This document shows, one piece after another, positions 5,480-28,342 of a stretch of 32,000 nucleotides of DNA (positions are counted from its first letter, which is position 1; the number at the start of each line of letters is the position of its first letter). The position numbers and the translations under genes are program-made. The stretch is from a virus. The DNA lies in IMG/VR virus record IMGVR_UViG_3300013232_000036, positions 1 through 32,000 of that record; one strand, 5' to 3'. The notes below the pieces were generated by a model. That model searched no databases. It saw nothing but the letters and a program-made list of their open reading frames with translations, and was not told the DNA's origin.

Positions 5480-5509
5480 GGGAGCGGCCAACACGGCCGC
5501 TTCCTTTTA
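5480..5509 (+). terminator. rho-independent-type terminator between convergent genes
   Basis: Stem AGCGGCC (5483-5489) / GGCCGCT (5495-5501), extendable by G-C pairs. Loop AACAC. Followed by TCCTTTT. Confidence 0.6.
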
Positions 5510-7372
5510 GTCCTCAGAGACTGCCGAGTTCGTCTTTGCCTGTGGGTTGAGGACGTCGAAGCGGGGGATCTTCAGCATCGAGACCAGGAAGCAGAGCAGG
5601 ATGGAGTGGAAGGAGTCGTCCGTGCAGTCGGGGCTCTTCTTGTACTGAATCTGCCGGGTCTGCTCGTTGTACTCCGAGAAGATGTTCAGGAAGTCCTTCG
5701 AGAACGGATCTTCGAACTGGTCCCAGTCCGGGAAGCGGAACACGTCACGCCGCTTGATGGCGTTGAACATGTCGGACATCACCTCGGTGCGGTGGACCAG
5801 GAAGCGGTGGAGGTTCTCTTCCCACTTCACCTTGGTAGCCGGCTGCGAGTACTGGTACTTCCAGATCTTGTCCCTGCCGAACTTCCGCTGCAGGTGATCG
5901 TTGCGATCGAAGCCACCGCCGTAGTCCGTCCCCACCACCTTCACGCCCCAGTTCCGGATGATGGTCTCGATGAGATCGAGCTGCACCTGCGGCTCCATCT
6001 CTGGACCCTCGAACCGGTGGATGTAGAAGATGGTGAACTTCTCGTTGATGTACGCCCCGAGAGACAGCACCGTGAAGGTGTTCTCACCCGTGCCCCAGTC
6101 GATGCCTGCGAAGATGGGGGAGGCGTGACCGAGGTGCGACTTGATCTTCATGACCTGGGCTTCGGTCATCAGCAGGCCCGGCTCGCAGTTGTCGATGACG
6201 TCCTGGCGGGTGAGGGGCCTGGTGCCTGAGTCGTAGGAGAGACCGAGCACCTCGTTGTGGAAGACAGCCTGAGACTGCTTGGTCCTCTTGTCGAGGAGCT
6301 CGTGCCAGTCGAGCCACGGCACCATGAGCTGAGGGACCCGGTAGCCCTCGAACGGCTGCTTCAGCTTCTTGTAGACGCCGGGGTTCATCGACGCCCACTG
6401 GGCGTGAGGGTGGATCGAGTTGATGGGCCCGCCGCACTTCGAGCAGATGAGCCCTTCGAGGCCCATGTTCTCTTCGCCGAGGATGTTCCAGAACCAGGTG
6501 CTCGGGTCTCCTGGAACGCCGTGGCGCTCACACGGAACGACCCACTCGTTCTGGGTGGACTGCTCCGTCCAGTACTTCTCCAGCGGGTTGTCGAGGGACT
6601 TGGGCGTGCCGGAGTAGAGGAAGAGCTTGTACGAGGAGTGGGAGGCGCACTCTTCGATGACCGGAAGGTTGTCGGTGATGATGTCCTGGATCTCGTCCAC
6701 CAGGATGAAGTCGGCCGGGATACCACGGACGCGGTCGGCGTTGTGGTAGGCGTACCTGAGGGTGATCTGGCTTCGGTTGACGAACTTCTTGAGGAAGACG
6801 TTGTCGCTGAGCTTCGAGGTCGTCCAGGCCTTCAGACGTTCAGACGTCTCCACCGGCTCCCTCAGACGATCCTGACTGAAGGTCTTCGTCTGGAGGTTGG
6901 TCGGGGAGACGTAGAGAACGTTGAAGGAGTTGATGATGGCGCAGTACGAAAGGCACTTGTTCCCGAGGAGCGTGCTCTTCTCGACCTGGCGTCCACACTT
7001 CAGCAGCACTCTCTTCGTCGGGGTGTCGTACGGGAGCCGCAGGTACTTGCGCTGATCGAACGAGAAGGGGACCCTCTTCTGCAGGACCTTGTCGGGGACG
7101 GTGATCGCGAACTCGACGAACTTCGACGGGGCGACGTGGATGAGCTCCGCCTGCTTCTTGGCGACGACATCCTCGTCGATGAGAGCGTCATCGACCTCCG
7201 GCTCGTAGTCCCACTCCTCTGGGATCTCTGGTTCTCCGCTCTCCGAGATGACGACGTTGTTGACGAACTTTCGCTTGTACTCTTCCGCCGAGACTACATT
7301 CCCACCTGAGACAACGAACATGAGTTCCTCTAGAGCTCCACCACCGTTGGCCTGGCTCTCTTCGTTCTGCAC
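5507..7372 (-). CDS. terL: terminase large subunit
   Basis: Walker A-like LKCGRQVEKST, Walker B-like DFILVDEIQD, Cys pair CSKCGG, C-terminal nuclease-like blocks FAGIDWGTGEN and VGTDYGGGFD. The track start is GTG 7372; an alternative ATG at 7321 (MFVVSGG) has GAGGA upstream. Confidence 0.85.
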   Translation of the reverse strand: MQNEESQANGGGALEELMFVVSGGNVVSAEEYKRKFVNNVVISESGEPEIPEEWDYEPEVDDALIDEDVVAKKQAELIHVAPSKFVEFAITVPDKVLQKRVPFSFDQRKYLRLPYDTPTKRVLLKCGRQVEKSTLLGNKCLSYCAIINSFNVLYVSPTNLQTKTFSQDRLREPVETSERLKAWTTSKLSDNVFLKKFVNRSQITLRYAYHNADRVRGIPADFILVDEIQDIITDNLPVIEECASHSSYKLFLYSGTPKSLDNPLEKYWTEQSTQNEWVVPCERHGVPGDPSTWFWNILGEENMGLEGLICSKCGGPINSIHPHAQWASMNPGVYKKLKQPFEGYRVPQLMVPWLDWHELLDKRTKQSQAVFHNEVLGLSYDSGTRPLTRQDVIDNCEPGLLMTEAQVMKIKSHLGHASPIFAGIDWGTGENTFTVLSLGAYINEKFTIFYIHRFEGPEMEPQVQLDLIETIIRNWGVKVVGTDYGGGFDRNDHLQRKFGRDKIWKYQYSQPATKVKWEENLHRFLVHRTEVMSDMFNAIKRRDVFRFPDWDQFEDPFSKDFLNIFSEYNEQTRQIQYKKSPDCTDDSFHSILLCFLVSMLKIPRFDVLNPQAKTNSAVSED

Positions 7373-15224: not shown

Positions 15225-16298
15225 TCAGCTTGTTTTCAAATCAGATGCTGCGATCGGTCCGGCAGGTGGTCCGGCGGTTGGCGGCCCAGTGGGCGCTCCG
15301 GGGGATGTGGTCGGGTGGAGATGGCCTTTCACCCACGTCTCGAACATCTGCGTCGCCATCACAACAGGGTTCGTAGCACTTCCGACATCGAGCTTGTCCT
15401 TGATGGTGACCTTGGAGGCCTGCAGCTTCATCGTGGCCTGAGTCACGATCTCCACTGCCTGGTCGACCGTCAGCTTCATGGTCTTGGAGATCTGAGCCGT
15501 CAGTGCATCCTTGAACTTGAAGTCCGCCTCTTTCCCTACCTCGACCGTCAGCTTCCCTTCGATCTTCCAGACGACATCCTTCTTCACTTCCCAGGTGACG
15601 TTGCCTTCCTTGTCGATCTTGAGGCTGATCTTGTCGGCAGCCCCGTCCGCACCTGAAGCCTTGATTGTAAGGCTCAGGATAGTCGGGTCATTGTCCCCGT
15701 GGGAACCGATTTCCAGAGAGGCGATGGGATGGGGATCGTCTGCGAACTCTCTCGCATTCAGGGTCAAGAGAGCAGGCCGGTGCCCGTCTGTCGTGCTCTC
15801 TGGCCTTGCGATCGTCCATTCCAGGTCACCGCCAAGAGTGTGAAGACCGTAGTTCTCGCAGTAGTCCTTGATGGTGTTGTTGATGGGCAAGAACATCCGC
15901 TGGCAGAGACCAGTCCCGCCGATCTGCACCACCCCACCTCTTCGCAAGATGAGGAAGTTCTCGTCTCGGGTCCCCATCCAGATGTCGCCAGGGTTGAGGT
16001 CTTGGCGGTGAGCTCGGAACTTGTCCGTACCCTCTACCTCAGGAGCTCCCCACGCCAAGACGAAGGGCATGTTCCCGTCAGAGGGTTCGCACACCCAGCA
16101 GACAGACCCCACCTCCGGCATGAAGTAGATGCCCTCTCCGTTGTAGGAGTGCATGTACGGCACGGCGAAGGCGATGTCCGTCAGAGGGTTCGGCAAGAAC
16201 TGAGAGGCCACTGAGACGGAGTACTGGGCGATGTTCACGTCCAAGATCTTGGCCGTGTAGACCGCTGCAGACCCCTTCGAGTTCTTGACCGGAGGCAT
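15225..16298 (-). CDS. central spike / baseplate protein V-like (P2 gpV, Mu gp45, T4 gp5 type)
   Basis: N-terminal OB-like region (PGDIWMGTRDENFLILRRGGVVQIGG). Beta-helix-like repeats (KISLKIDKEGNVTWEVKKDVVWKIEGKLTVEVGKEADFKFKD). C-terminal tip GHLHPTTSPGAPTGPP, with H-x-H at nt 15315-15323. Confidence 0.5.
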   Translation of the reverse strand: MPPVKNSKGSAAVYTAKILDVNIAQYSVSVASQFLPNPLTDIAFAVPYMHSYNGEGIYFMPEVGSVCWVCEPSDGNMPFVLAWGAPEVEGTDKFRAHRQDLNPGDIWMGTRDENFLILRRGGVVQIGGTGLCQRMFLPINNTIKDYCENYGLHTLGGDLEWTIARPESTTDGHRPALLTLNAREFADDPHPIASLEIGSHGDNDPTILSLTIKASGADGAADKISLKIDKEGNVTWEVKKDVVWKIEGKLTVEVGKEADFKFKDALTAQISKTMKLTVDQAVEIVTQATMKLQASKVTIKDKLDVGSATNPVVMATQMFETWVKGHLHPTTSPGAPTGPPTAGPPAGPIAASDLKTS

Positions 16299-16310
16299 CA
16301 GCTACCTCTC

Positions 16311-16370: not shown

Positions 16371-16378
16371 ACCAGTCC

Positions 16379-16696
16379 TCACTTCACCACCTTCAGTCCG
16401 TACCCAAAGGTCTTCCCAAGGGCTTTCCTCAAAGGCTCTGTCATCTCGGTGGCAGTTCGTCCGGCAAATGCCCTCTGACGGTTGATTTTCGCAGCATGAT
16501 CGTACTTGTGCGCTGGAAGCTTGTTGTTCTCAACGGCCTTCTTCGCAGCCTGGAATTGGAGGCGGTTTCCGAAGTTCACACCCTTCTTGATCGATGCACC
16601 CTCAACACCACTCCGCACACGCTTCTCGATCCACTCGTCGGAAACAGCAATCTTCTCCAGTTCATCGACAAATGCGGAAACAGTGATTTCGTTCAT
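16379..16696 (-). CDS. leader-motif protein A (105 aa)
   Basis: N-terminus MNEITVSAFVDELEKIAVS (motif at nt 16646-16672). Its start overlaps the HNH stop (ATGA). GC is lower than the surroundings. Confidence 0.65.
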   Translation of the reverse strand: MNEITVSAFVDELEKIAVSDEWIEKRVRSGVEGASIKKGVNFGNRLQFQAAKKAVENNKLPAHKYDHAAKINRQRAFAGRTATEMTEPLRKALGKTFGYGLKVVK

Positions 16697-17265
16697 GACG
16701 AGCTCCTTGAGAAATCAGCTACGAGACAGCACCACTTCACAAAGTCTTCTTGTTTCAAGGAAGTCTTCATGAAGTTGAGAGTTGCGTGCACCCACTGCAC
16801 ATTTCCCTCTTCGTAGCCCTTGGAGCTGTCGATGCGATCAAGGGACGCAGACGAGGCTCCTGCGGCCATGCTGTTGGGTGAGAGAGCGAGTGGGAGTCCC
16901 GAAAGAGCGCACTTCTTGTTCTGCTTCAGGAACAGTTCCCAAGCGTACTGAATAGTGATCTTGAACGACTGGCCACGATGCTTAGCCCTCGCCATGATTC
17001 CACGAAACTTGGTGCTTGAGAGGTCACCGACGCCTCTGTACTTCGAGCTTCGGTTTCTCTTTCGAAAGCATCCGCATGAACGTGGAGCCTGGCCATCACG
17101 TCTTGGTTTCTTCACGATGTCGGACAGAGCCATCGTCTGCTCCTTCCCACATCGACACTTCACGAGCCAAATGACCCCGTACCGACTTCGATCTTCGGTT
17201 GGGCGCACCGCAGTCAAGTATCCAAACTCTTGACCGGTAATGTCTCTTGCAGGATTCGGCATCAC
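16693..17265 (-). CDS. HNH homing-type endonuclease
   Basis: SLDRIDSSKGYEEGNVQWVHATLNFMK is an HNH/His-Me finger block. N-terminal GQEFGYLTAV...WLVKCRCG is typical of phage HNH proteins. GC is visibly lower and third-position G/C bias is weak. Starts 5 nt after the RNAP stop. Confidence 0.8.
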   Translation of the reverse strand: MMPNPARDITGQEFGYLTAVRPTEDRSRYGVIWLVKCRCGKEQTMALSDIVKKPRRDGQAPRSCGCFRKRNRSSKYRGVGDLSSTKFRGIMARAKHRGQSFKITIQYAWELFLKQNKKCALSGLPLALSPNSMAAGASSASLDRIDSSKGYEEGNVQWVHATLNFMKTSLKQEDFVKWCCLVADFSRSSS

Positions 17266-17270
17266 TGACC

Positions 17271-20200
17271 TCAGTAAGCGTAAGGCTTCTTAGCCTTGAT
17301 CTCTGGCGGCGGGAGGCCGAATTCCGAGCCCCGTGCCATGCCTGCGATGGGGTGCGAGCCGTGGAGATCCGACTTCAGGCCCTGGGCGGCAGCCTGCTGA
17401 AGAGTCGTGTGGAGCTCTTGGTAGTTGAGACGGCCCATCCAGTTGGGAGACTGAGACGGGATCTCGGTGATGCCCTTGAGGATGGACTCGTGCTCGATGG
17501 GCTTCTTCCCCTTCGGGAGGTTCCGGTTGAACTCCTCGACCACCGAGAGAGGGGCGACGTCTCCGTGGATGTAGTCGCTGTGCCCAGGGTCCTTGACCTT
17601 CGTGAGGTTGGTGAGTGCCCGGACCACCACCTCGATGTTGCGCCGGCGTACGCCAGACTTCGCGTAGAGCAGATTGAGCTCGTTGGTGAGGTAGTTCTGC
17701 ACCGCGTGGATGTCCTTGGTGGTGCTGAGGAGCTCCAGCGGGTTGATGTGACCGCCTGAGAGCATCTCTCCCCTCTTCACCTCGTCCCCCACCTTGAGGG
17801 CTGGGTTCACCAGGGTGCTCTTCACCAGGTGGGCCTCACCGTTGATGACGATGTTCACACCACCGGTCGGGTCCTTGTGGATGTCGGTGATCTTGCCGGT
17901 CGTCTTCGAGATGGTGGCCTGGTTCTTGAGAGTCCTCGGCATGCCCACGATCTGCTTGAGGCGGGTGAACATGTCGACCGAGCCAGCGCCTGCACCACTG
18001 GCGACACCACCGGAGTGGAAGGCGTTCATGGCGAGCTGAGCCGCCGGCTCACCGAGAGACTGCCCAGCCAGGACACCGATGTTGGTGCCGATGTCGTGGT
18101 TGTCACCCCTCTCGTTGAGGCCGAAGCACTTGGCGCAGATGCCGTCTCCGTGCTGGCACTTCAGCGGCGAGCGGACCAAGACCTTCTGGTCCTTCAGCTT
18201 GGCCGTGATGGCAGGGGTGAGAAGAGTCCCCTCCTTCACCGTCACACCGTCCTTGAGCTTGTACGGGGCCGCCAGGTAGCGATCGTGGATGTCCGGGTGG
18301 GTGGTGTCGAGGAGAACGCCTTGGTTCGTCTTGCAGTCCGCCGACGTGATGAGGGTGCCCATCGTCGTGTTCAGGATGTCCTTCGAGACCGCTCCTGGGT
18401 CTGAGGTACCTGAGGCACGCTGCAGCGTTCCCTTTCGAGCTCCGTGCTGGGTGAGCCAGTACTCGCCGAGGTCCAGGCCCTCCGAGAAGGACTTGGTCAC
18501 GGGGGTCGTGATGGTGCGGTTCAGGGAGTCCTGCACCAGCATCGGAGCCGCCACCATCTGGCGGAGCTGTTCTGGCTTGCCACGGGCACCGGTGAAGACC
18601 ATGCGACCGATGCGGTTGTCGCTGTGGTTCCAGCGGGCCTTGGCAGCCTCTTCCAGCTTCGAGGTGGCACCGGTGTAGATCTCGACGAGCTTCTTCTCCA
18701 GAGCAGGGCCAGGCTTCAAACTCCTGGCGGCCTCCTCGGCCTTCTTCTTGGCGTCGGCGAGGATGCCGTCGCGCTCTGGGAGGACAGCGAAGTCCTTCAG
18801 ACCGAAGGAGGAGCCCAGCTTGTAGGCGTACTCGTTGCCCAGGTCCTTCAGACCGTCCACCGCCTTGGAGAACTGGGCGACGTGGTTCTTCGCCAGCTTG
18901 CCGGCGATCTCGTCTCGCAGGAACTTCTTGGTCACGTCCAGCTTGGGATCGTGAAGGATGTCCTTGTTCTTCGGGAAGCCGGACGGCATGTGCTCGGCGA
19001 ACAGCAGCCGTCCCATGGTGGTCTCAGGAGCTCCCTGCAGCTTGATGACATCCGTCGGACCGATGTCGTGCTTGGCCAGGGCCTTCTTGGCCTCGTCGAT
19101 GGTGGCGAAGGACTTCCCAGACGCCTTCCCCCACTGGGTGAGGTAGTGCAGGCCGAGGATCTGCTCCTGGTCGAGGTTGTACATCACCTCTCCGGAGGTC
19201 GGGCTGAAGAGGTTCCTCGACGGCATCATCTTCTTCACTTCTTCTACAGCCGCCTGAGAGATGGGGACCGTCACGGCCATCGTGTCGCCGTCGAAGTCGG
19301 CGTTGAAGCCACCGCAGACCAGCGGGTGGATCTGGATGGCCTTGCCCTCGACGAGCTTGGGCCAGAAGCCCTGCACAGCGAACTTGTGCAAGGCAGGGTC
19401 ACGCTTGAGGGCCACCGGGCGGGATTCCACAACCTTTTCGAGGGCTTTCTGAGCCAGCGAGGAGTCCTTCTTGATCTCCTCCTGTGCAGGAAGCATCGAC
19501 ACGCCCCAGCGACCGAGCTGTGCCACGACGAAGGGCTTGTACATCTCCATGGCCGCCCCACGAGGCAGACCCACTTGGTCGATGTGCAGTGCCGGCTCCG
19601 GGATGATGGTGGACCGCATCGAGAGGTCCAGCTTCCTCTTCACCAGCTTGCTCTGGAAGTAGCCCTCCTTCGGCTGCTCCCCCTCACCGCTTCCGATGAC
19701 GTCGAGGATGCCCTTGAGAGCGCGTGAGCCCTTCTGGTCCATGTCGTAGACCGGCTTGAAGTTGCCGACCGACTGCATCGCCTTCACTGCGTCCCAGAGC
19801 TGCAGGTGCAGAGGGTTCTTGTGCTCGTCCGAGAAGGTCTTCGAGTCGAAGTTCTTGAGCTGATCGTTGACGAGGGAGATGTTCTTGTAGAGGCCGTTCA
19901 ACGGGGCGTAGTTCACGTCCCCGCCAGGAGTCGGAGTGGCTGGGCGGAACTTCGGCGGGATGACAGGGATGTTGTGGAGGATGTAGGCCTCCGCAGGGGT
20001 GAGGCCCTGGTCCTTCAGCGCCAGCAGGTACTTCAGCTTCTTGTTGGCGCGATCGAGAGGGGCAGCCTGCAGCTTCGGGAGCTCCACCTTCAGCTTGCTG
20101 ATCTCCTTCTCGACGTCCACCTTCTTGAGGGCGTGTTCGATGGCAGCACCGCCGGTCTTCCCGTCGATGGTGCGCTTGCCGTTCATCACCTCGTCGAGCT

Positions 20201-23200
20201 CCTTGAGCTTCAGCCCGAGGAGCACAGGCACTGGGCCAGGCTTGACGTTCTCACCGCAGAAGATGGGGTTCGGCACGGGCTCCGAGAGCCGCATGAAGGA
20301 CCACTTGTCCCCGTCGAGACCTCCAGTGATGGTCGGGTCGAAGAGACCGCCTGGCACTGGCTTGAGGTTCTTCGAGAGGATGGTCTTGCTGCCGTCCTTG
20401 ATCTCGTTCCGGCCGTTGCCTGCCTGGGCGAGGATCTGCTTGTTGGTGACTGGCACCAGGCGGAGAGCTGTGCCCTCACGCGAGATGTTCACCCCAGCGC
20501 CACGGAGGAGAGCCGTGAACTTGTTGTAGGCGAAGGACGGGACAGGGGGAGGCGGCTCGTGCCCCTGCTGCACCATCGACCAGAAGTTCATGTCCTGCAT
20601 GTCGGACTTGTAGGTCGTCATCTCCCGGATGTTGGCTCGGGCGTCGTGACCCAGCAGGGCGTACATCTCCAGAGCTCCGAAGCCCTGACCACCACGCTCA
20701 CCACCACGGGTGGGCTGCTTGTCGATGTCGTACGGGAGGCCTCGACCCTGCACGTCGGTGCCACCGCCACGAGCTGAGAGCTTCTTCTCGACCTGCTGGA
20801 CCAGCTTCAGCAGGTACTGCGGACCGACCAGCACAGAGCCCAGAGCCTTCTTCGGGTCGTGTGGATCGAAGACCGTCTCCTCGTCGTGAAGACCAGCCTT
20901 CTTCAGGTCGTCCAACACCTGCTGCCGGTAGTCGTTGTTGGGCCCGGCGAAGTTGTTGACGATGTACGGCTTGCCGGTCTTCTCGGCGATCTTCGCAGCA
21001 GCCGTCTCCAGCACCTGCCCCAGGTTCATACGGGTGGGGACGCCGGAGGGGTTCAGCAGGACCTGCAGTGGGCGCTTCTCACCGGTCGCAGGATCGACCG
21101 TAAACGGCATCTCGTGGTCGGGGAGGATCTGCGTGATGATGCCCTTGTTGCCGTGGCGGCCGGCCATCTTGTCGCCGATGACGGCCTGCTCCTCCGTCTT
21201 CACGTAGATCTTCACGCCGCGACCAGAGGGCTCCCTCACGACCTTGGTGACGATGCCGGCGTGGTCCTCGTCCCACACCATGCTCTTGTCCTTGTACGGC
21301 TGGATGGCCCTCTTCCCGAGAGCACCCCAGGCGTGAGTCAGCTTGGTGGAGGGGTTCTTCCCGATGGCGGCCACCAGGACCTGGCCTGGCAGCACCTTCG
21401 TGCCGGGCTTGACGATGCCGTCGTCGCCGATGTTGTCCCACTGCTCCTTCGACATCTTCGAGGCCCGGACGATAGAGTAGGCCTTGAACTTGGTCTTGGA
21501 GACGTGGTCCGTGTCCGGGTCGATCTCCATCCCCTTCTTGTAGAGGTGCTCGGAGGTCAGCTTCTTGGCGGCGCTCTCCGAGATGACGATGCCGTCCTCG
21601 AAGTTGTAGCCCTTGTACGGGATGTAGCCGACGCGAAGGTTGGTGCCGATCGACAGAGCCCCACCCTTGGTGAAGTTCGTATCGGCCATCACCTGGCCCT
21701 TGGTCACCGTGTCCCCGGCCTTCACCAGGAGCTCGGAGTGCAGCATTCCCTTGGGGTCGTTGAGGGGGAAGTGGTTGTAGAGGTGGGCCTCGGTCTTCCC
21801 ATCCTTCCCCTGGATGTGGATCTTGTCGTCCTTGATGGCGGTGATCTTCCCGTCCACCGGGGCGTTGGCAGTCGTGAAGTGGCCGATGAGTTTCTCGAAG
21901 GTGTGGTTCGGATCCTTCGAGTCCGTCTTGGTCTGCACCAGCGGCGGCTCGCGGAACTTCAGGCCGATGGACTGCTCCATCTGCTTGTCGGCCATGGAGA
22001 CGCGGTTGCCGTTGTTGCACGGCAGGAACGGCACCATGTTCGAGGCGTAGTTGAAGAGGCCCTTCGCGGAGGGCATCACGAACTGGGCCTCCGTGAACGG
22101 GCGGATGGCGATCTCACCGTCCGGGAGCTTGACCTTCACGTTCTTGGCGACCGGAATGGGCTTGCCGTTCTCCCAGGTGACCTGGTCTGGGAGCACTGCC
22201 GTCATCGCGTGAAAGTCGGCGACCTTGAGGTACTGATCCTTGCCGGTCTTCAGGTTGTAGACCGGAGCCTCCAGGTCCTTCCCGTTCTTCTGTACGTTGG
22301 CAGCGAGGTGCAGGGTGATGCCGGTCTTCTCGGACTCCGGCGTGTGCATCGGATCGAGGAAGCCGAAGTGGCTGGCGTTCACCGCCTGCATCTCTGGCGT
22401 GAGGTGCTGGGTGCTCTTGATGCCGCCGAGGCTCGGGGCCATCAGCGTCGTCTTGCGATGGGCCGAGAGCATCTGCAGCGGGTTCGTCTGGTCGGAGCGC
22501 TCCGACACACCACCACCCTTGGTGAAGAACTCACGGATGGGGCGGTTGAAGATGTCAGGGGAGAGGATCTCACCGATGGTCTTCTTGTTGTCCACCGTCT
22601 GGCGCAGACGCCCTTTGATGTTCTTGGCGTTGCGGTCGATCATCAGCGGGATGAAGTCCTCGACGGACCAGACCTCCTTGAAGGCCAGGCTGTCACGGTC
22701 GTCAGGCTGGTGAGTCCCACGGGCCACTCCAAGAACCTTCACGGCTCCAAGGGCCAGGGCCTCACCGTTCACCTTGTCGAAGGACTTGCCCAGGGTCACC
22801 TTGGTGGTGTCCGGACGGATGATGGTCTTGTCGAAGATCTCGTTGACGTGCTTCGCGTAGTCGCCGACATCCTTCGGCTGAGGAGCGCCGTCTTCGGTGG
22901 TGCGGGCCCAGAAGTCGTGCAGGGACTTCTGGAACTTCGCGTCGTTCTTCGGCTTGTTGGCGGCGAAGATCTCCTTGCCCCACTGGTGCTCAAGCTGGTC
23001 GTCAGAGACGCCCAGGGACTTGAGGATGGGGTAGAGGGGGAGGTGGGCGCTGTCGAGCTTGAGGGAGAACTTCTTGGTGAGTCGATCGAGCTTCACCGAG
23101 AAGCCACGCCCGTCGATGCCCTTCTCCATGTTGTACTCGGTCTCCAGGTCACCGTTCTCCTGGACGCGAGTGTAGGCCCCGGACTTGAGGCGGAAGAGGT

Positions 23201-23540
23201 GATCGATCTGGTACTCGTTGCCTCCGACGATGTAGCCGTACCTGTTGGTCAGCTTGGGAAGCCGAGCGAGGACGGCTCCCTTCTTCGAGTCCACCACCTT
23301 GCCGGTGACGGTGTCGATGAGCTTGATGTCGCCCTTGACCGGGGCACCCCAGGTGCCCTCCTTGTCCTTGGCTTCTGCCTGACTGGCGATGTCGTCGTGC
23401 GCCAGCTTGTCGTCGACCCGGAGGTTCTCAACGACGAGGCGCTGCTTCTGACCCTCCCAGGGGAAGTAGGCCTGGATGGCCTTCATCGCGTTGTTCTTGA
23501 GGAGATCGAAAGACTTCTCTGGAGTCAGGCCGTCATTCAT
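17271..23540 (-). CDS. fused RNA polymerase beta / beta-prime (rpoB-rpoC-like single chain, 2,089 aa)
   Basis: Beta blocks: FLDPMHTPESEKTG, NRVSMADKQMEQS, GYNFEDGIVISE, GRHGNKG (residues 794-800, nt 21141-21161), LLNPSGVPTRMNLGQVLE, GGERGGQGFGALEMYAL. Beta-prime blocks: MRLSEPVPNPIF, IPVIPPKFRP, KRKLDLSMRSTIIP, ALKRDPALHKFAVQGF, HPLVCGGFNADFDGD (nt 19284-19304), GARKGTLQRASG, GEPAAQLAMNAFHSGG, CQHGDGICAKCFG. The junction is near residue 1025 (about nt 20470). Confidence 0.95.
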   Translation of the reverse strand: MNDGLTPEKSFDLLKNNAMKAIQAYFPWEGQKQRLVVENLRVDDKLAHDDIASQAEAKDKEGTWGAPVKGDIKLIDTVTGKVVDSKKGAVLARLPKLTNRYGYIVGGNEYQIDHLFRLKSGAYTRVQENGDLETEYNMEKGIDGRGFSVKLDRLTKKFSLKLDSAHLPLYPILKSLGVSDDQLEHQWGKEIFAANKPKNDAKFQKSLHDFWARTTEDGAPQPKDVGDYAKHVNEIFDKTIIRPDTTKVTLGKSFDKVNGEALALGAVKVLGVARGTHQPDDRDSLAFKEVWSVEDFIPLMIDRNAKNIKGRLRQTVDNKKTIGEILSPDIFNRPIREFFTKGGGVSERSDQTNPLQMLSAHRKTTLMAPSLGGIKSTQHLTPEMQAVNASHFGFLDPMHTPESEKTGITLHLAANVQKNGKDLEAPVYNLKTGKDQYLKVADFHAMTAVLPDQVTWENGKPIPVAKNVKVKLPDGEIAIRPFTEAQFVMPSAKGLFNYASNMVPFLPCNNGNRVSMADKQMEQSIGLKFREPPLVQTKTDSKDPNHTFEKLIGHFTTANAPVDGKITAIKDDKIHIQGKDGKTEAHLYNHFPLNDPKGMLHSELLVKAGDTVTKGQVMADTNFTKGGALSIGTNLRVGYIPYKGYNFEDGIVISESAAKKLTSEHLYKKGMEIDPDTDHVSKTKFKAYSIVRASKMSKEQWDNIGDDGIVKPGTKVLPGQVLVAAIGKNPSTKLTHAWGALGKRAIQPYKDKSMVWDEDHAGIVTKVVREPSGRGVKIYVKTEEQAVIGDKMAGRHGNKGIITQILPDHEMPFTVDPATGEKRPLQVLLNPSGVPTRMNLGQVLETAAAKIAEKTGKPYIVNNFAGPNNDYRQQVLDDLKKAGLHDEETVFDPHDPKKALGSVLVGPQYLLKLVQQVEKKLSARGGGTDVQGRGLPYDIDKQPTRGGERGGQGFGALEMYALLGHDARANIREMTTYKSDMQDMNFWSMVQQGHEPPPPVPSFAYNKFTALLRGAGVNISREGTALRLVPVTNKQILAQAGNGRNEIKDGSKTILSKNLKPVPGGLFDPTITGGLDGDKWSFMRLSEPVPNPIFCGENVKPGPVPVLLGLKLKELDEVMNGKRTIDGKTGGAAIEHALKKVDVEKEISKLKVELPKLQAAPLDRANKKLKYLLALKDQGLTPAEAYILHNIPVIPPKFRPATPTPGGDVNYAPLNGLYKNISLVNDQLKNFDSKTFSDEHKNPLHLQLWDAVKAMQSVGNFKPVYDMDQKGSRALKGILDVIGSGEGEQPKEGYFQSKLVKRKLDLSMRSTIIPEPALHIDQVGLPRGAAMEMYKPFVVAQLGRWGVSMLPAQEEIKKDSSLAQKALEKVVESRPVALKRDPALHKFAVQGFWPKLVEGKAIQIHPLVCGGFNADFDGDTMAVTVPISQAAVEEVKKMMPSRNLFSPTSGEVMYNLDQEQILGLHYLTQWGKASGKSFATIDEAKKALAKHDIGPTDVIKLQGAPETTMGRLLFAEHMPSGFPKNKDILHDPKLDVTKKFLRDEIAGKLAKNHVAQFSKAVDGLKDLGNEYAYKLGSSFGLKDFAVLPERDGILADAKKKAEEAARSLKPGPALEKKLVEIYTGATSKLEEAAKARWNHSDNRIGRMVFTGARGKPEQLRQMVAAPMLVQDSLNRTITTPVTKSFSEGLDLGEYWLTQHGARKGTLQRASGTSDPGAVSKDILNTTMGTLITSADCKTNQGVLLDTTHPDIHDRYLAAPYKLKDGVTVKEGTLLTPAITAKLKDQKVLVRSPLKCQHGDGICAKCFGLNERGDNHDIGTNIGVLAGQSLGEPAAQLAMNAFHSGGVASGAGAGSVDMFTRLKQIVGMPRTLKNQATISKTTGKITDIHKDPTGGVNIVINGEAHLVKSTLVNPALKVGDEVKRGEMLSGGHINPLELLSTTKDIHAVQNYLTNELNLLYAKSGVRRRNIEVVVRALTNLTKVKDPGHSDYIHGDVAPLSVVEEFNRNLPKGKKPIEHESILKGITEIPSQSPNWMGRLNYQELHTTLQQAAAQGLKSDLHGSHPIAGMARGSEFGLPPPEIKAKKPYAY

Positions 23541-23613
23541 CTGATCTCACCTTGCGACGTTGGAGAGGCTCTTCCATCCGGGGTCCTACCTCCGCGCAAC
23601 AGAGGTTCTCGGG

Positions 23614-23634
23614 CCTTGTCGGACATCGACAAGG
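23614..23634. repeat. perfect 8-bp inverted repeat CCTTGTCG-gacat-CGACAAGG (operator- or hairpin-like) upstream of the RNAP gene
   Basis: Arms at 23614-23621 and 23627-23634 are exact reverse complements. Overlaps the candidate -10 element of the minus-strand promoter. Confidence 0.7.
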
Positions 23635-23659
23635 TACAGCGATGGTGCAGAGGGGTCAA
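23631..23659 (-). promoter_or_regulatory. candidate sigma70-type promoter (TTGACC-N17-TACCTT) for the RNAP gene
   Basis: Minus-strand TTGACC at 23659-23654 and TACCTT at 23636-23631, about 90 nt upstream of ATG 23540. Weak -10, so low confidence. Confidence 0.3.
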
Positions 23660-23731
23660 CGAAAGTGACCTGAGTCTAGGCATAAGACTGTAGAGACCGC
23701 AGACCGCGTGCTCTCATCAAAGGAGCTTTTC

Positions 23732-23860
23732 ATGCCTGAAACACAGACCCCCTCGGAGACGCAAAACGAGATGTGGGAAGAAGAGAAAGAGGAAGCCCTC
23801 AACGGGAAGACGCAGCCAGACGAGGAAGTGGAAGAAGAGAAGGAAGAGACGAAGCCTTGA
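23732..23860 (+). CDS. small highly acidic protein (42 aa)
   Basis: AGGAG at 23721-23725, 6 nt upstream of the ATG. MPETQTPSETQNEMWEEEKEEALNGKTQPDEEVEEEKEETKP. First gene of the plus-strand cassette. Below the ORF-track size cut-off. Confidence 0.6.
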   Translation: MPETQTPSETQNEMWEEEKEEALNGKTQPDEEVEEEKEETKP

Positions 23861-23943
23861 TGCTCTTCTTCTGGGCGTTCGCCCTCCAGGTATTCACGCT
23901 CACCACCCATCGTCTGATGGTGGCCTGGACCAACATTCGATGA
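23860..23943 (+). CDS. possible 27-aa hydrophobic peptide, translationally coupled (TGATG)
   Basis: MLFFWAFALQVFTLTTHRLMVAWTNIR. The ATG shares its A with the preceding TGA. Its stop overlaps the GAGGAGG site of the next gene. Confidence 0.35.
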   Translation: MLFFWAFALQVFTLTTHRLMVAWTNIR

Positions 23944-23953
23944 GGAGGTAGCC

Positions 23954-24367
23954 GTGGAGCATCCCGTTCGATCAGCATTCTGCCCTCTCTACTTTAGGGC
24001 ACATGGTGGTCAGTTCCTGATCACCAAGCCCTGCTCCGCAGAGACCTTCGTGGTTCGAGGGACTCCCATCTTCAGAGATGGGGTCCTTGGGACGTGCGAC
24101 AGGCCGTTCGACTGTGGAACATGCCCGCTGATGTCCCAGTGGGTCGTAGAGATGGTGGCAGCAGGTTGGACGGTAGGGTGGGAGTGCGACCAGTGTCTCA
24201 AAGACACCCTGCTTGAGGACAAGATCCAGGGAGTTCAGCGTGAGCTCCCTGGGTTCTTCCAATCCTGCCAGCCAGACGATGCAGACAAACCCCCAATCGA
24301 AGGATGCACCCGCTGTGGGTGGCAAACGTCCTTCCTTCAAGTCATTCTGAGGAGGTCAAGTGGCTGA
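23954..24367 (+). CDS. Cys-rich hypothetical protein (137 aa)
   Basis: GTG start with GAGGAGG upstream. Ten Cys, including CDRPFDCGTC, CDQC and CTRC pairs. Confidence 0.6.
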   Translation: MEHPVRSAFCPLYFRAHGGQFLITKPCSAETFVVRGTPIFRDGVLGTCDRPFDCGTCPLMSQWVVEMVAAGWTVGWECDQCLKDTLLEDKIQGVQRELPGFFQSCQPDDADKPPIEGCTRCGWQTSFLQVILRRSSG

Positions 24368-24743
24368 CTGGTTTCTACCTTTTGCACCCCCTCAGCAACC
24401 GCTGCAGGTGCAAGAGCTCGTGCCGGAAGTCAGGTACGAGGCAGAAGAAGAGGAAGTCGAGTACGACCCGACACGCTTCCTGGTGTGCTCTCACTGCCGA
24501 TGCCCGATCGAGTACGGCGAGCAGTGCATGGAGTTCCTGCCGGGTGTCTCGGGTGTAGGTCAGAAGAGTGGACGCCCCACAGTGGTCGACGGGGACAACC
24601 TGGATCACGAACACGCCGTCCTGCACATCGGCTGCATCTACGACTACGTCTTCTGCGTCGAGGAGACCCTCGCGTACCAAGAGGAAGACGAGGTGAAGTA
24701 CTGCGCCGCCTGTGAAGCGAAACTGGATGGGGACGAGGGATGA
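24360..24743 (+). CDS. acidic zinc-ribbon-like hypothetical protein (127 aa)
   Basis: GTG start with GAGGAGG upstream. CSHCRC...C and CAAC pairs. Acidic runs EAEEEEVE and EEDE. Confidence 0.6.
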   Translation: MADWFLPFAPPQQPLQVQELVPEVRYEAEEEEVEYDPTRFLVCSHCRCPIEYGEQCMEFLPGVSGVGQKSGRPTVVDGDNLDHEHAVLHIGCIYDYVFCVEETLAYQEEDEVKYCAACEAKLDGDEG

Positions 24744-25912: not shown

Positions 25913-25918
25913 CGAGGT

Positions 25919-25941: not shown

Positions 25942-25946
25942 AGCTC

Positions 25947-26294: not shown

Positions 26295-26296
26295 GA

Positions 26297-28342
26297 CTAC
26301 CCCACAGGGTTCGGACGGCGCGAGGGCTTCTGCTCCGGCAGCGGGCTCTGAGAAGCGTCGAGCGGGTTCTCCTGGCTGCCCTGCTGATCGCGGACGATCT
26401 GCATGACCAGCATGTAGAGCTGCGGATTGGTGGCCTTCATCCGGTTGAGCTCCGTCATCTGGGTCATCTTGTCCTGGTCCTTGAGGGCGTTGGCCGCACG
26501 CTTGGCCAGGTACAGCAGGTTCATGCCGCCGCCCTTCTGGCCCATCGTGATGGGGCTCTGGGCCTCCATTGGGATGCCATCACCAGGGGCCTGCTGGGCG
26601 TTCTCAGTGGAGACTGTCGAGCCCTGCGGCATGGCCGGGTCGACCTGCTGACCTGGCAGCATCTCGCCTTCCTGACCCGTCTGGGGAGCCCCAGGCTGGC
26701 CGCCAGGTGTTCCTGGAAGGGCACCGCCCGCTCCGCCGGCCCCAGGCGCGCCAGGAGCCCCAGGCTGGCCACCCATACCCATGGCCATCTGTTGCTGCTG
26801 CATCTGCATCTGGGCCTTCATCTGAATGGCCTGAGCCTCAGCCTGAGTGTTGGCCTGGGCGATCTGCATCTTCCGCTGGAACTCAAGCTGCTTCGAGAGC
26901 TCCAACTTCTTGCGCTCTTCCTCGACCATGTAGTCCTGGTCGACTTCGTTGAGGAGCGTCTGGTCGGAGATCTTCTGGGCCTGGTTGAGCTGGAAGTAGA
27001 GCGTGGACCGCTGGAGGTCGTCGGCCATCTTGAAGCGCCGCATGTGCGCCTTGATGGGGGTCCACTCCATGAAGTTCGCGATCCGCTTGATGACGAACTG
27101 GTTCAGCATGTTCTCGTGGTCCGTGCGGTACCCGATGAACATGTTCTCCAGCATCCTCATGGAGACGTTGGAGCCCGAGTACGTCAGGCCACCGAAGACG
27201 AACTCCTGAGGCACCCCCATGCCGGCCACGATCTGCTTCGACCAGACGTCCATCTCCTGGTACAGGCCGAGCGCCTTGCCGTCCCCGCCGATGGTCTCGT
27301 TGCCGATGGGCAGCGGCAGGATGGGGATGTAGTTGTTGTCGTACTTCCACTTCGCGATCTCACCCTCCATGCGGCTCTTCCAGCCGTCGAGGGAGACCGT
27401 GGTGTACGGGTCGGAGCTCGCAGAGCCAGCCTGCGGGAAGAGCACACGCAGAGGAACGATGTGCTCCTGGGCAATGGCCTCCTGCGCCTTCCGGAGGATC
27501 TGCAGGTAGAAGGTGTCTTTGAGCACCGGGAAGATGAGCGGCATGCCCCAGCCCTGATCCTTCTGGCTGATGATGGGCCGCTTCATCACGAAGATGTTCT
27601 CCGGTGAGAAGCTGATGAACTTGTTCCTCTTCATGCACTCCACGAAGACATCTGGAATGGTGTCGAGGACAGTCTTCTTCCCCAGCAACATGTCGTTGCG
27701 GAGCTGGAGGGGGATCTCGAAGGTGTAGACGGGATCAGCGCCGGCAAAGCCTGGGTCGACGTTGATGTACTCCGGGTTCCACCGCTGCAGGCGAATGCGG
27801 CGCAGGTCCTTCTCGTAGAAGTCCTGGACCTTGGCGGCCCCGTGGTGATTGCACTTCGTGCACTCGATGATGTAGTCGAGGTTCCGCCACTTGTACGCCG
27901 TCTTGGCCGCCTTCTCCTTGTGGCCGCACTTGCTGCAGATGAGGTACTTGGTGAACGGGAAGTGGATGCTGATCGCACACATCCCGTACGTATAGTAGTC
28001 GAGCCCAACCTCGATCTGGAACGCCCGGTACCGAAGGTGCTGGCCGAGGACTTCCTCCCACCGCTCCTTCTTCACCGGGTCCTGCTCGTCGATGACGATC
28101 TCGGTGATGGGGTACTCGGACATCTTGTGGATGACCGTGTTGATGAGCGGGTTGACCAGGTAGTAGTACCGGCACCAGCGCATCAGCGCCTTCATCGAAG
28201 GCGGCAGGAACGTGTGGCCGATGTCGAAGAAGGGTGAGGGGTAGCGGACACCGGACCGGCTCGTGCCGTCAGCCGTGCGCCCACGCTGGCCGGAGAACCT
28301 GGAAGTCCCCCCGAAGCCCAAGCTGACGTTGTCGAAACTCAT
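26297..28342 (-). CDS. putative portal protein with zinc-ribbon insertion and C-terminal Q/M/G/P low-complexity tract
   Basis: 681 aa. The N-terminal block MKALMRWCRYYYLVNPLINTVIHKMSEYPIT resembles the conserved portal N-terminal block (compare T4 gp20 [30 protein letters not shown], from memory). CSKCGH...CTKCNHHG. QMKAQMQMQQQQMAMGMGGQPGAPGAPGAGGAGG at about nt 26640-26830. Confidence 0.55.
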   Translation of the reverse strand: MSFDNVSLGFGGTSRFSGQRGRTADGTSRSGVRYPSPFFDIGHTFLPPSMKALMRWCRYYYLVNPLINTVIHKMSEYPITEIVIDEQDPVKKERWEEVLGQHLRYRAFQIEVGLDYYTYGMCAISIHFPFTKYLICSKCGHKEKAAKTAYKWRNLDYIIECTKCNHHGAAKVQDFYEKDLRRIRLQRWNPEYINVDPGFAGADPVYTFEIPLQLRNDMLLGKKTVLDTIPDVFVECMKRNKFISFSPENIFVMKRPIISQKDQGWGMPLIFPVLKDTFYLQILRKAQEAIAQEHIVPLRVLFPQAGSASSDPYTTVSLDGWKSRMEGEIAKWKYDNNYIPILPLPIGNETIGGDGKALGLYQEMDVWSKQIVAGMGVPQEFVFGGLTYSGSNVSMRMLENMFIGYRTDHENMLNQFVIKRIANFMEWTPIKAHMRRFKMADDLQRSTLYFQLNQAQKISDQTLLNEVDQDYMVEEERKKLELSKQLEFQRKMQIAQANTQAEAQAIQMKAQMQMQQQQMAMGMGGQPGAPGAPGAGGAGGALPGTPGGQPGAPQTGQEGEMLPGQQVDPAMPQGSTVSTENAQQAPGDGIPMEAQSPITMGQKGGGMNLLYLAKRAANALKDQDKMTQMTELNRMKATNPQLYMLVMQIVRDQQGSQENPLDASQSPLPEQKPSRRPNPVG

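What the first reader, a model, noticed from the sequence alone, without database searches (positions are those of the whole stretch)
17271..23540. Single-chain, compact beta + beta-prime RNA polymerase in a phage-like gene context
One uninterrupted 2,089-codon ORF carries the hallmark blocks of bacterial RpoB followed by those of RpoC. RpoB blocks: FLDPMHTPESEKTG; NRVSMADKQMEQS; GYNFEDGIVISE; GRHGNKG at residues 794-800 (nt 21141-21161); LLNPSGVPTRMNLGQVLE; GGERGGQGFGALEMYAL. RpoC blocks: MRLSEPVPNPIF; IPVIPPKFRP; LNGLYKNISLVN; KRKLDLSMRSTIIP; ALKRDPALHKFAVQGF; HPLVCGGFNADFDGD with N1413 (nt 19284-19304); bridge-helix-like GARKGTLQRASG; trigger-loop-like GEPAAQLAMNAFHSGG; CQHGDGICAKCFG. The beta C-terminal block (VPSFAYNKFTALLRGAG) runs straight into the beta-prime N-terminal block (KPVPGGLFDPTI) near residue 1025 (about nt 20470), with no stop or frame change. 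Each half is roughly 1,020-1,065 aa, against 1,342 and 1,407 aa for E. coli beta and beta-prime, so most lineage-specific insertions are missing. Cellular rpoB-rpoC fusions exist (Helicobacter, Wolbachia). Jumbo phages (phiKZ, AR9) encode multisubunit-type RNAPs, but those are split into more polypeptides, not fewer. I cannot match a minimal fused enzyme sitting among terminase, portal and spike genes to a described phage system.
Basis: partly seen in the sequence, partly recalled or inferred. Interest (0 to 1): 0.9.

Follow-up and report, generated by a model that had tools for sequence, protein, structure and literature searches.

The report
Single-chain beta–beta′ RNA polymerase of phages
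A large phage encodes both big subunits of a bacterial-type RNA polymerase as one seamless 2,089-residue protein, a design shared by hundreds of uncultured phages and apparently never described as a fusion.

Summary
ORF 17271-23540 (-) is one stop-free 2,089-codon gene: a complete compact beta followed directly by a compact beta′. All catalytic motifs are intact.

It is not an artefact. 98 full-length homologues align without gaps across the join. All 112 IMG/VR loci that contain the junction read through it in one frame. 931 protein clusters (50% identity) match the junction segment.

It is not a host gene. The neighbours are portal, large terminase and other phage genes, and two scans of 185,579 cellular genomes found no relative.

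The join is seamless. The last residues of beta and residue ~20 of beta′ form adjacent strands with a two-residue turn. The N-terminal zinc-binding domain of beta′ and the lineage-specific inserts are missing.

Isolated phages Arash (Salmonella) and D69 (Vibrio) share the same junction and deletions, but split beta′ further on. In Arash these proteins and a sigma-like protein were abundant in virion preparations.

Most likely this is the phage's own transcriptase. It is probably virion-associated, and its promoter-specificity factor is unidentified.

Phage beta/beta′ polymerases and cellular beta–beta′ fusions are both known, but I found no description of this fused phage clade. I rate it a new variant of a known kind.

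The parts
17271..23540 (-). Single ORF of 2,089 codons plus stop: the fused beta–beta′ RNA polymerase
   Evidence: identical to database protein P0127 from a 53,465-bp JGI contig
20475..23540 (-). Beta module (residues 1-1022). Protrusion/lobe, fork/Rif region, flap, the double-psi beta-barrel with GDKMAGRHGNKG, and the C-terminal clamp piece. It aligns to E. coli beta 84-232, 429-931, 1048-1126 and 1207-1339.
   Evidence: AlphaFold model of residues 1-620 matches bacterial beta with TM 0.69
17274..20474 (-). Beta′ module (residues 1023-2089). Clamp, clamp helices, the NADFDGD barrel, bridge helix, second Zn site and trigger loop. It aligns to E. coli beta′ 167-949 and 1150-1347.
20451..20492 (-). 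The junction (residues 1017-1030, VNISREGTALRLVP). The last beta strand and the first beta′ strand are predicted as adjacent strands joined by a two-residue turn, with no added linker.
   Evidence: pairwise alignment to the E. coli beta C-terminus plus beta′ N-terminus; model with block pLDDT 83-95 here; gap-free in 98 homologues
20304..20324 (-). Site of the deleted N-terminal Zn-binding domain of beta′ (residues 1073-1079, GGLDGDK). It replaces about 32 residues of E. coli beta′ that hold the four Cys.
21141..21161 (-). Beta active-site motif GRHGNKG (residues 794-800)
   Evidence: invariant or nearly invariant in the family
19284..19304 (-). Beta′ catalytic motif NADFDGD (residues 1413-1419)
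   Evidence: D-F-D-G-D invariant in the family
18360..18470 (-). Bridge helix (residues 1691-1727, containing HGARKG)
17988..18065 (-). Trigger loop, N-terminal arm (residues 1826-1851, GEPAAQLAMNAFHSGG), without the E. coli SI3 insert
26297..28342 (-). Portal protein. Its linkage to the RNAP gene is conserved in 35 related loci, including Arash and D69.
12977..16298 (-). Two conserved genes downstream of the RNAP (357 aa, weak baseplate-hub/tail-lysozyme match; 745 aa, DUF5661). They are present in 34 and 33 related loci, on the same strand as the RNAP.
5507..7372 (-). Large terminase subunit (GpA_ATPase type)

Best explanation
The ORF encodes the catalytic core of a phage-owned, bacterial-type DNA-dependent RNA polymerase made as one polypeptide.

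Shown:
- A complete but compact beta is joined head-to-tail to a compact beta′.
- Both double-psi barrels, the Mg-binding NADFDGD, the beta lysine motif, the bridge helix, the trigger loop and the second Zn site are intact and conserved.
- The join is seamless. The last strand of beta and the first conserved strand of beta′ (about residue 20 of E. coli beta′) are predicted to lie side by side with a two-residue turn. These two chain ends are neighbours in cellular RNAP (established knowledge).
- The N-terminal Zn-binding domain of beta′ and the lineage-specific inserts are gone.
- The architecture defines a large clade of phages with genomes of about 165-213 kb, known almost entirely from metagenomes. 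Its sister branch holds the isolates Arash and D69, which share the junction but split beta′ at about position 1,504.

Inferred:
- Covalent tethering fixes 1:1 stoichiometry. It may also replace the assembly role that the alpha dimer and omega play in cells.
- The enzyme is made late with the structural genes next to the portal gene and is carried in the virion. This would let the phage transcribe its own genes from the start of infection, independently of host RNAP and probably insensitive to rifampicin.
- Promoter choice comes from a separate phage-encoded factor. In the Arash/D69 branch this is a sigma70-family-like protein. In the window's own branch it is unidentified.
For: Identity and integrity:
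- Pfam, PDB and fold matches.
- Residue mapping of the catalytic elements.
- These residues are invariant across 50 homologues.

Real and under selection:
- 98 full-length homologues at 47-79% identity from JGI, ENA, Logan and NCBI, with a gap-free junction that is as conserved as the rest of the protein.
- 34 of 34 complete IMG/VR loci, and all 78 further loci that contain the junction, read through it in one frame.
- 931 clusters at 50% identity match the junction segment at E <= 1e-10. All but two of the 150 listed match as a single stretch running across the join, and all 144 new representatives span it on the family model.
- Intein-sized inserts in relatives sit exactly in the HTPE, NPSGVP, NADFDGD and trigger-loop motifs. 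Relatives carry precomputed intein and homing-endonuclease Pfam domains. This pattern is typical of essential active enzymes.

Seamless junction and Zn-domain loss.

Phage, not host:
- Phage genes surround the ORF, and synteny is kept on a 195.7-kb contig.
- No relative was found in 185,579 cellular genomes.

Clade structure: an NJ tree on 1,615 gap-free columns with 200 bootstraps gives 100% for the fused-junction clade, the all-in-one subclade and Arash/D69.

Virion association:
- In Arash, Gp206 (beta+beta′N) was the most-detected protein in purified particles (3,516 spectra). Gp216 (beta′C) gave 1,210 and the sigma-like Gp10 gave 467 (PMC10585845).
- Divided by protein length these are 2.3, 2.0 and 2.0 (my arithmetic), which is compatible with one complex.
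- Portal–RNAP linkage is conserved in 35 loci.

Sigma-like partner: Gp10 matches Sigma70_r3 above Pfam's cut-off and is conserved at 44% identity in D69/D181/D148 at the same genome position.

Rif pocket: substituted at positions equivalent to E. coli Q513, F514 and the 526-533 stretch.
Against: - No activity data exist for any member.
- Virion association rests on one proteomic study of a relative only ~34% identical. That preparation yielded 116 proteins, including ribonucleotide reductases, and the authors themselves raise carry-over of abundant intracellular proteins.
- No sigma, alpha or omega homologue is recognisable in the window or in the ±10 kb flanks of related loci.
- Contigs carrying the Arash-type sigma-like protein do not coincide in length with the listed contigs carrying all-in-one enzymes.
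- No recurrent intergenic motif and no excess of sigma70-type promoters was found.
- Two of three residues known to matter for sigma70 docking on the E. coli clamp helices (R275, E295) are not conserved (my reading), so the mode of initiation is open.
- Independence from alpha and omega is inferred only from their absence in 32 kb and in the Arash annotation.
Confidence: 0.75

Rival explanations
1. It is an active phage RNA polymerase but not a virion component. It is synthesised after infection and transcribes middle or late genes, while host RNAP starts the programme.
For: The Arash virion preparation contained many non-structural enzymes, so carry-over is possible. Unfused compact phage enzymes such as that of Cobetia phage Carin-5 sit in replication modules next to a sigma gene, not among structural genes. 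No packaging signal or processing site was identified here.
Against: Gp206 was the single most-detected protein in Arash particles, above the major capsid protein. The gene is embedded in the structural module next to the portal gene in all 35 loci examined, on the same strand as conserved structural-size genes.
Confidence: 0.25
2. The single ORF is an assembly, sequencing or frameshift artefact that joins two adjacent genes.
For: Only a single contig was given, and reads could not be mapped.
Against: An identical protein exists in an independent database entry. 98 full-length homologues, 112 IMG/VR loci and hundreds of 50%-identity clusters from different projects and assemblers all read through the same gap-free junction. 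Two isolated, separately sequenced phage groups share it.
Confidence: 0.01
3. The window is bacterial chromosome, or a prophage that captured a host gene, and the ORF is an ordinary cellular rpoB-rpoC fusion like those of Helicobacter or Wolbachia.
For: Cellular fusions in that gene order exist (PMC7483510). The enzyme is slightly closer to bacterial RNAP (28-29% identity) than to the Carin-5/YerA41 phage enzymes (22-24%).
Against: The neighbours are terminase, portal, protease-like and baseplate-like genes and many ORFans. Relatives lie on viral contigs of about 165-213 kb. There was no hit in 185,579 species-representative genomes. The clade is monophyletic and separate from the bacterial references with 100% bootstrap. 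It lacks the Zn-binding domain and the inserts of cellular enzymes.
Confidence: 0.01
4. The protein is a decayed polymerase homologue kept for a structural or DNA-binding role in the virion, without catalysis.
For: The Zn-binding domain is lost. The trigger-loop residue equivalent to E. coli R933 is Asn. Arash and D69 have AADYDGD in place of NADFDGD.
Against: All three catalytic Asp, the beta Lys motif, the bridge helix, the trigger-loop Met/His and the second Zn site are kept and are invariant or nearly so across the family. Intein-sized inserts target exactly these motifs.
Confidence: 0.03

Closest known systems
RNA polymerase of Salmonella phage Arash (Gp206 + Gp216) and of Vibrio phages D69/D181/D148
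   Same: They have the same seamless beta→beta′ junction, the same loss of the first ~19 residues and of the Zn-binding domain of beta′, and the same portal–RNAP linkage. Genome sizes are similar (181-188 kb). They are the sister clade with 100% bootstrap.
   Different: They are only ~34% identical to the window's enzyme. Their beta′ is split at family position ~1,504 into a second gene a few kb away. Their catalytic motif is AADYDGD. The records annotate these genes simply as 'RNA polymerase subunit beta' or 'hypothetical protein', and the fusion is not remarked on.
mReC: multisubunit-RNAP-encoding Caudovirales (Weinheimer & Aylward 2020, PMC7481178)
   Same: These are tailed phages, some over 200 kb, with compact beta and beta′ that are still alignable to cellular COG0085/COG0086. 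They were found by metagenome mining.
   Different: All mReC rows list two different genes, and none exceeds about 1,560 aa. Fusion is mentioned there only for crAssphage. Most mReC terminases are of the PF03237 type, whereas this one is PF05876. I could not obtain mReC sequences, so the phylogenetic relation is untested.
Cellular rpoB–rpoC fusions (Helicobacteraceae, Wolbachia)
   Same: Beta then beta′ in one reading frame (PMC7483510, citing Zakharova 1999 and Lane & Darst 2010).
   Different: Those are host chromosomal genes. By established knowledge they are full-size subunits. This one is viral and about 25% shorter than E. coli beta plus beta′, and it lacks the Zn-binding domain.
phiKZ/AR9-type jumbo-phage multisubunit RNAPs
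   Same: Phage-encoded beta/beta′-related enzymes, one set of which is virion-packaged for early transcription (PMC7598289, PMC7824862).
   Different: Those are split into four or five polypeptides, are very divergent, and come as two paralogous sets without sigma. This one is a single polypeptide that is easily alignable to bacterial RNAP. PHROGs of that type score only E 1e-25 to 1e-6 here.
Single-chain two-barrel phage RNAPs (crAss-like gp66, YonO, P23-45 tape-measure-fused RNAP)
   Same: One polypeptide carries both catalytic barrels, and some are virion-delivered.
   Different: Those retain little beyond the barrels and are barely detectable by sequence. This enzyme keeps the full bacterial beta/beta′ domain order.
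Cobetia phage Carin-5 and Yersinia phage YerA41 RNAPs
   Same: Compact beta/beta′ enzymes in isolated phages of 145-155 kb. Carin-5 has an adjacent gene annotated as a sigma factor.
   Different: The genes are unfused and in the order beta′ then beta, and beta′ is split in YerA41. In Carin-5 they lie in a replication module. They are 22-24% identical to the window's enzyme and form a separate clade with 100% bootstrap.

Membership tests
Bacterial-type multisubunit RNAP catalytic core (beta + beta′) | Beta′ double-psi barrel with the Mg-binding NADFDGD motif | tested here: met
   FNADFDGD at residues 1412-1419 aligns to E. coli 458-464. D, F, D, G, D are invariant in 50 homologues.
Bacterial-type multisubunit RNAP catalytic core (beta + beta′) | Beta double-psi barrel with the conserved lysine motif (E. 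coli K1065/K1073 region) and the E813/D814 motif | tested here: met
   GDKMAGRHGNKG and YNFED are identical to E. coli.
Bacterial-type multisubunit RNAP catalytic core (beta + beta′) | Bridge helix, trigger loop and the second (C-terminal) Zn site of beta′ | tested here: met
   HGARKG; GEPAAQLAMNAFHSGG; C1736, C1795, C1802 and C1805 align to E. coli C814, C888, C895 and C898.
Bacterial-type multisubunit RNAP catalytic core (beta + beta′) | Overall fold of beta and beta′ | tested here: met
   The model of residues 560-1560 (pLDDT 83) matches bacterial beta′ chains at E about 1e-35. The model of residues 1-620 (pLDDT 76) matches bacterial beta at TM 0.69.
Bacterial-type multisubunit RNAP catalytic core (beta + beta′) | N-terminal Zn-binding domain of beta′ (four Cys) | tested here: not met
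   About 32 residues are deleted, and only one Cys lies in residues 1020-1125.
Bacterial-type multisubunit RNAP catalytic core (beta + beta′) | Assembly with an alpha dimer and omega; initiation with a sigma factor | tested here: inconclusive
   No alpha, omega or sigma homologue was found in the 32-kb window or in the flanks of relatives. A sigma-like partner is known only in the Arash/D69 branch. Whole genomes were not retrievable.
Bacterial-type multisubunit RNAP catalytic core (beta + beta′) | Template-dependent RNA synthesis | not testable with these tools
   Needs biochemistry.
Cellular rpoB–rpoC fusion (Helicobacter/Wolbachia type) | Beta followed by beta′ in one ORF | tested here: met
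Cellular rpoB–rpoC fusion (Helicobacter/Wolbachia type) | Encoded on a cellular chromosome | tested here: not met
   The neighbours are phage genes. No relative was found in 185,579 species genomes.
mReC (Weinheimer & Aylward 2020) | Tailed-phage contig whose beta and beta′ are recognisably homologous to the cellular subunits | tested here: met
mReC (Weinheimer & Aylward 2020) | Beta and beta′ as two separate proteins of at least 800 aa each (the study's selection rule and all of its listed rows) | tested here: not met
   One ORF here. All mReC rows list two different genes.
mReC (Weinheimer & Aylward 2020) | Large terminase of the PF03237/VOG01069 type | tested here: not met
   The window's terminase matches PF05876 above its cut-off, while PF03237 scores below its cut-off.
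mReC (Weinheimer & Aylward 2020) | Placement inside the mReC clade in an RNAP tree | not testable with these tools
   No mReC sequences could be retrieved. The scans returned only the fused family or nothing.
phiKZ/AR9-type jumbo-phage RNAP | Beta and beta′ each split into two or three polypeptides; two paralogous sets | tested here: not met
   A single polypeptide here. There is one set in Arash (2 places = Gp206 + Gp216) and one in D69. The number of sets in the window's own genome is unknown.
Minimal single-chain two-barrel RNAPs (crAss gp66, YonO) | Only the two barrels are retained, with no detectable similarity to the rest of beta/beta′ | tested here: not met
   Eight Rpb1/Rpb2 Pfam domains are detected, with near end-to-end alignment to bacterial subunits.
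Arash/D69-type two-piece enzyme | Shared seamless beta→beta′ junction and loss of the Zn-binding domain | tested here: met
Arash/D69-type two-piece enzyme | Beta′ split at family position ~1,504 into a second gene | tested here: not met
   The window's ORF is continuous. The split is seen in Arash, D69 and L132-L143.

The most novel reading that the evidence does not exclude
This is a self-sufficient, single-polypeptide bacterial-type RNA polymerase core of about 230 kDa. It folds and works without alpha and omega, travels in the virion, and starts phage transcription using a specificity factor unrelated to known sigma factors (or none). That would make it a natural minimal form of the cellular enzyme, and possibly an old lineage rather than a recent capture from bacteria.
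Probability: 0.25. Interest if true: 0.85.

Novelty: new variant of a known kind. Interest (0 to 1): 0.62.

Why it matters
- **Minimal enzyme.** Bacterial-type RNAP is normally built from five chains on an alpha-dimer scaffold. Here nature has made the whole catalytic core as one compact chain, conserved across hundreds of phage lineages. It is a ready-made candidate for a minimal, easily expressed multisubunit-type polymerase for structural work and synthetic biology.
- **Test of alpha and omega.** It offers a natural test of what alpha, omega and the beta′ Zn-binding domain are really needed for.
- **Phage biology.** If the enzyme is delivered with the virion, it adds a third solution to host-independent early transcription. 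The known ones are the N4-type single-subunit enzymes and the phiKZ-type five-piece enzymes.
- **Survey blind spot.** Surveys that require separate beta and beta′ hits will miss this abundant clade.
- **Experimental access.** Arash and D69 are culturable relatives, so the main predictions can be tested directly.

Tried and rejected
- **Conserved promoter.** Sigma70-type promoter and terminator matches in 15000-28500 were no more frequent than in shuffles. No 9-mer recurred in five or more of 86 intergenic stretches from the window and eight relatives.
- **Linked accessory subunit.** No small gene next to the RNAP is conserved. Pfam and PHROGs found no sigma, alpha or omega in the window.
- **Arash sigma-like Gp10.** It has no homologue in the window or in any locus flank. 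A co-occurrence test by exact contig length was negative for the all-in-one sublineage.
- **Wider context of the window.** The exact protein was not on record for context look-up.
- **Relation to mReC.** Three scans returned only the fused family or nothing. The ~1,370-aa proteins that resemble the mReC 'beta' size class turned out to be fused genes that stop at, or just inside, the intein-sized insert at the NADFDGD site.
- **My own error.** My first tree used Carin-5 subunits in the wrong order. The record's annotation is ambiguous, and the real order is beta′ then beta. I redid the tree and the topology did not change.
- A junction alignment of ten diverse sequences was too variable for the genome scan, so I used four sequences instead.
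- **dN/dS not attempted.** The available DNA pairs are too diverged (at most 79% amino-acid identity) for meaningful synonymous rates. Conservation of length and sequence was used instead.

Full report
**1. The observation**

The ORF at 17271-23540 on the minus strand is real: 2,089 codons, an ATG start and no internal stop. A Shine-Dalgarno-like AAGGTGA precedes the start codon.

Pfam finds Rpb2 domains 3, 6 and 7 in residues 349-984, then Rpb1 domains 1 to 5 in residues 1165-1988. The beta′ half scores about 410 bits against Thermus beta′. The beta half scores about 246 bits against a solved bacterial beta chain (8i23_C) and aligns over residues ~20-1020 to several others.

**2. Anatomy**

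I built a profile from 98 full-length homologues and mapped it onto E. coli. This shows what is kept and what is missing:

| Subunit | E. coli segments with a counterpart | E. coli segments without one |
|---|---|---|
| beta | 84-232, 429-931, 1048-1126, 1207-1339 | ~232-429, ~931-1048, ~1126-1207 |
| beta′ | 167-949, 1150-1347 | ~950-1150 |

By established knowledge the missing segments are the positions of the lineage-specific inserts of E. coli.

- **Catalytic elements are identical or nearly so.** These are GDKMAGRHGNKG and YNFED in beta, and NADFDGD, the bridge-helix HGARKG, the trigger-loop M..FH and the four Cys of the second Zn site in beta′. They are invariant or nearly invariant in 50 family members.
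- **The join adds nothing.** GVNISREG corresponds to the very end of E. coli beta (GINIELEDE). TALRLVP corresponds to beta′ from about residue 20.
- **The Zn-binding domain is gone.** A stretch of about 32 residues holding the four Cys of the N-terminal Zn-binding domain of beta′ is deleted.
- **Models agree with this.** An AlphaFold model of residues 560-1560 (pLDDT 83, pTM 0.73) places residues 1017-1022 and 1025-1030 as adjacent strands with a two-residue turn, with block pLDDT of 83-95. That model matches bacterial beta′ chains. A model of residues 1-620 matches bacterial beta at TM 0.69, although Pfam missed the protrusion and lobe.
- **The rifampicin pocket is substituted.** This affects positions equivalent to E. 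coli Q513, F514 and the 526-533 stretch. Rifampicin insensitivity is my inference from that.

**3. Not an artefact and not a host gene**

- The database search returned 728 relatives. Nearly all of the best 120 are ~2,080-2,130 aa at 47-79% identity. They come from four independent sources and sit on contigs of up to 213 kb.
- The junction region is gap-free in 98 of them and as conserved as the rest of the protein.
- In IMG/VR, 34 of 34 complete loci and all 78 further loci that contain the junction read through it in one frame. The only two exceptions are cut by contig ends.
- I searched the 186-residue junction segment against 1.84 billion representative proteins. It gave 931 clusters at E <= 1e-10. 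All but two of the 150 listed match as a single stretch running across the join.
- On the family model, all 144 new representatives span the junction. Of them, 76 hold the whole enzyme in one protein, 15 are Arash-type, 5 stop at the NADFDGD insert site and 48 are fragments.
- The window's protein is identical to a JGI entry from a 53-kb contig.
- The neighbours are phage genes: large terminase, portal, a protease-like protein and a baseplate-hub-like protein. Gene order is kept on a 195.7-kb contig at 77% identity.
- Two scans of one genome from each of 185,579 bacterial and archaeal species found no relative.

**4. Wider family**

- **Isolates with the same junction.** Salmonella phage Arash (Gp206, 1,525 aa) and Vibrio phage D69 (1,527 aa) share the seamless junction, the loss of the beta′ N-terminus and the Zn-domain deletion. 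Their beta′ continues in a second gene of about 606-609 aa.
- **A recurrent split.** The split at family position ~1,504 recurs in many metagenomic loci.
- **Tree.** An NJ tree on 1,615 gap-free columns with 200 bootstraps gives 100% support for the fused-junction clade, the all-in-one subclade and Arash/D69. Three bacterial references and the unfused Carin-5/YerA41 enzymes fall outside. Sampling of bacteria is thin (three species, two phyla), so this says nothing about deep origins.
- **Intein-sized inserts.** Longer relatives carry inserts of 350-490 aa at four sites inside the HTPE, NPSGVP, NADFDGD and trigger-loop motifs. They have precomputed intein and homing-endonuclease Pfam domains.

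**5. How it probably works**

- **The enzyme.** An active RNA polymerase core is strongly supported by sequence. The tether fixes stoichiometry, and it joins two chain ends that are neighbours in cellular RNAP.
- **Independence from alpha and omega.** This is my inference. None is seen in the window, and none is annotated in Arash.
- **Virion association.** This is inferred from two observations. First, the RNAP gene sits next to the portal gene in 35 related loci, including Arash and D69. Within the window's family it also lies just upstream of two conserved structural-size genes on the same strand. Second, in Arash virion proteomics Gp206 had the highest spectral count. Gp216 and the sigma-like Gp10 were also detected, with similar length-normalised counts of 2.3, 2.0 and 2.0 (numbers, arithmetic mine). 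The authors caution that abundant intracellular enzymes may be carried over.
- **Specificity factor.** Gp10 matches Sigma70 region 3 above Pfam's cut-off and is conserved in the D69 group. I found no counterpart for the window's sublineage and no promoter motif. Its specificity factor is unknown.

**6. Comparison with what is known**

- **Cellular fusions.** Beta–beta′ fusions exist in Helicobacteraceae and Wolbachia.
- **mReC.** Compact beta/beta′ enzymes in tailed phages were described in 2020 as mReC. Every row of that study's table lists two separate genes, and the paper mentions fusion only for crAssphage. Its selection rule required separate COG0085 and COG0086 proteins. That rule would plausibly skip a fused gene, which is my inference.
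- **Reviews.** Reviews of jumbo-phage RNAPs from 2020, 2021 and 2026 describe only enzymes split into more pieces.
- **Arash paper.** It calls Gp206 'subunit beta' without comment.
- **Limit of the search.** Within the searchable library I found no description of this fused clade. Papers in subscription journals could not be searched.

**7. Verdict**

This is a real, widespread and apparently undescribed architectural variant of phage-encoded bacterial-type RNA polymerase. It has culturable relatives in which the key predictions can be tested.

It remains a worthwhile finding. Interest 0.62; novelty: new variant of a known kind.

Noticed in passing
window 16379-17265 (-): An HNH-type endonuclease gene (190 aa, PHROG endonuclease families) and a 105-aa ORF sit between the RNAP stop codon and the conserved 357-aa gene. 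In the 77%-identical relative L003 the 363-aa gene follows the RNAP directly. This looks like a mobile homing-endonuclease insertion.
   Followed up: partly
L009, L020-L022, L028, L029, L033, L128 and others; proteins P0014, P0018, P0034, P0080, P0091-P0093: Many relatives carry inserts of 350-490 aa at four discrete sites inside the most conserved RNAP motifs: beta HTPE (~401), beta NPSGVP (~834), beta′ NADFDGD (~1420) and the trigger loop (~1845). They have LAGLIDADG, intein-splicing and Hom_end Pfam domains, and up to three inserts occur in one gene (3,387 aa). The window's own gene has none.
   Followed up: partly
L132-L143, L001 (Arash), L002 (D69): A recurrent split of beta′ at family position ~1,504 yields a two-gene layout ([beta–beta′N] + [beta′C]). 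The gap ranges from 40 bp to several kb. In D181/D148 a homing endonuclease is annotated under the match. L132 is additionally split within beta at ~585.
   Followed up: partly
L001 and L002 (Arash Gp206, D69 gp261): The catalytic motif reads AADYDGD rather than NADFDGD in these isolates. The three Asp are kept.
   Followed up: no
L122 (Cobetia phage Carin-5, PV155638.1): Both large RNAP genes are annotated 'subunit beta'. By motifs the order is sigma – beta′ (1,083 aa) – beta (927 aa), the reverse of the bacterial order. No canonical NADFDGD was found by a simple pattern. Pfam did not recognise the adjacent 196-aa 'sigma factor'.
   Followed up: partly
window 23954-25912 (+): A cassette of five small plus-strand genes interrupts the minus-strand structural block between portal and RNAP. 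Only two have homologues in related loci, and one (25511-25912) matches phrog_26039 at E 3e-39. This is a variable region.
   Followed up: no
window 23656-23910 (-): The 84-aa ORF just upstream of the RNAP gene is low-complexity (Ser/Leu/Pro-rich) and has no homologue in any related locus. It may not be a gene, which would leave ~400 nt of non-coding sequence upstream of the RNAP.
   Followed up: no
window 9010-9080 (-): ARAGORN calls a tRNA-like gene with an undetermined anticodon in the 640-bp gap between the NUDIX gene and the next minus-strand gene.
   Followed up: no
window 7660-8972 (+): RNase HII (PF01351, E 4e-29) and a NUDIX hydrolase (PF00293, E 7e-23) lie beside the terminase gene. 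RNase HII is at the same relative position in L003.
   Followed up: no
PMC7481178, Supplementary Data 2: Several mReC contigs carry two RNAP sets of different size classes, for example 1,362+1,009 aa and 1,019+899 aa on a 308-kb contig. This is reminiscent of the virion and non-virion pairs of phiKZ-like phages.
   Followed up: no
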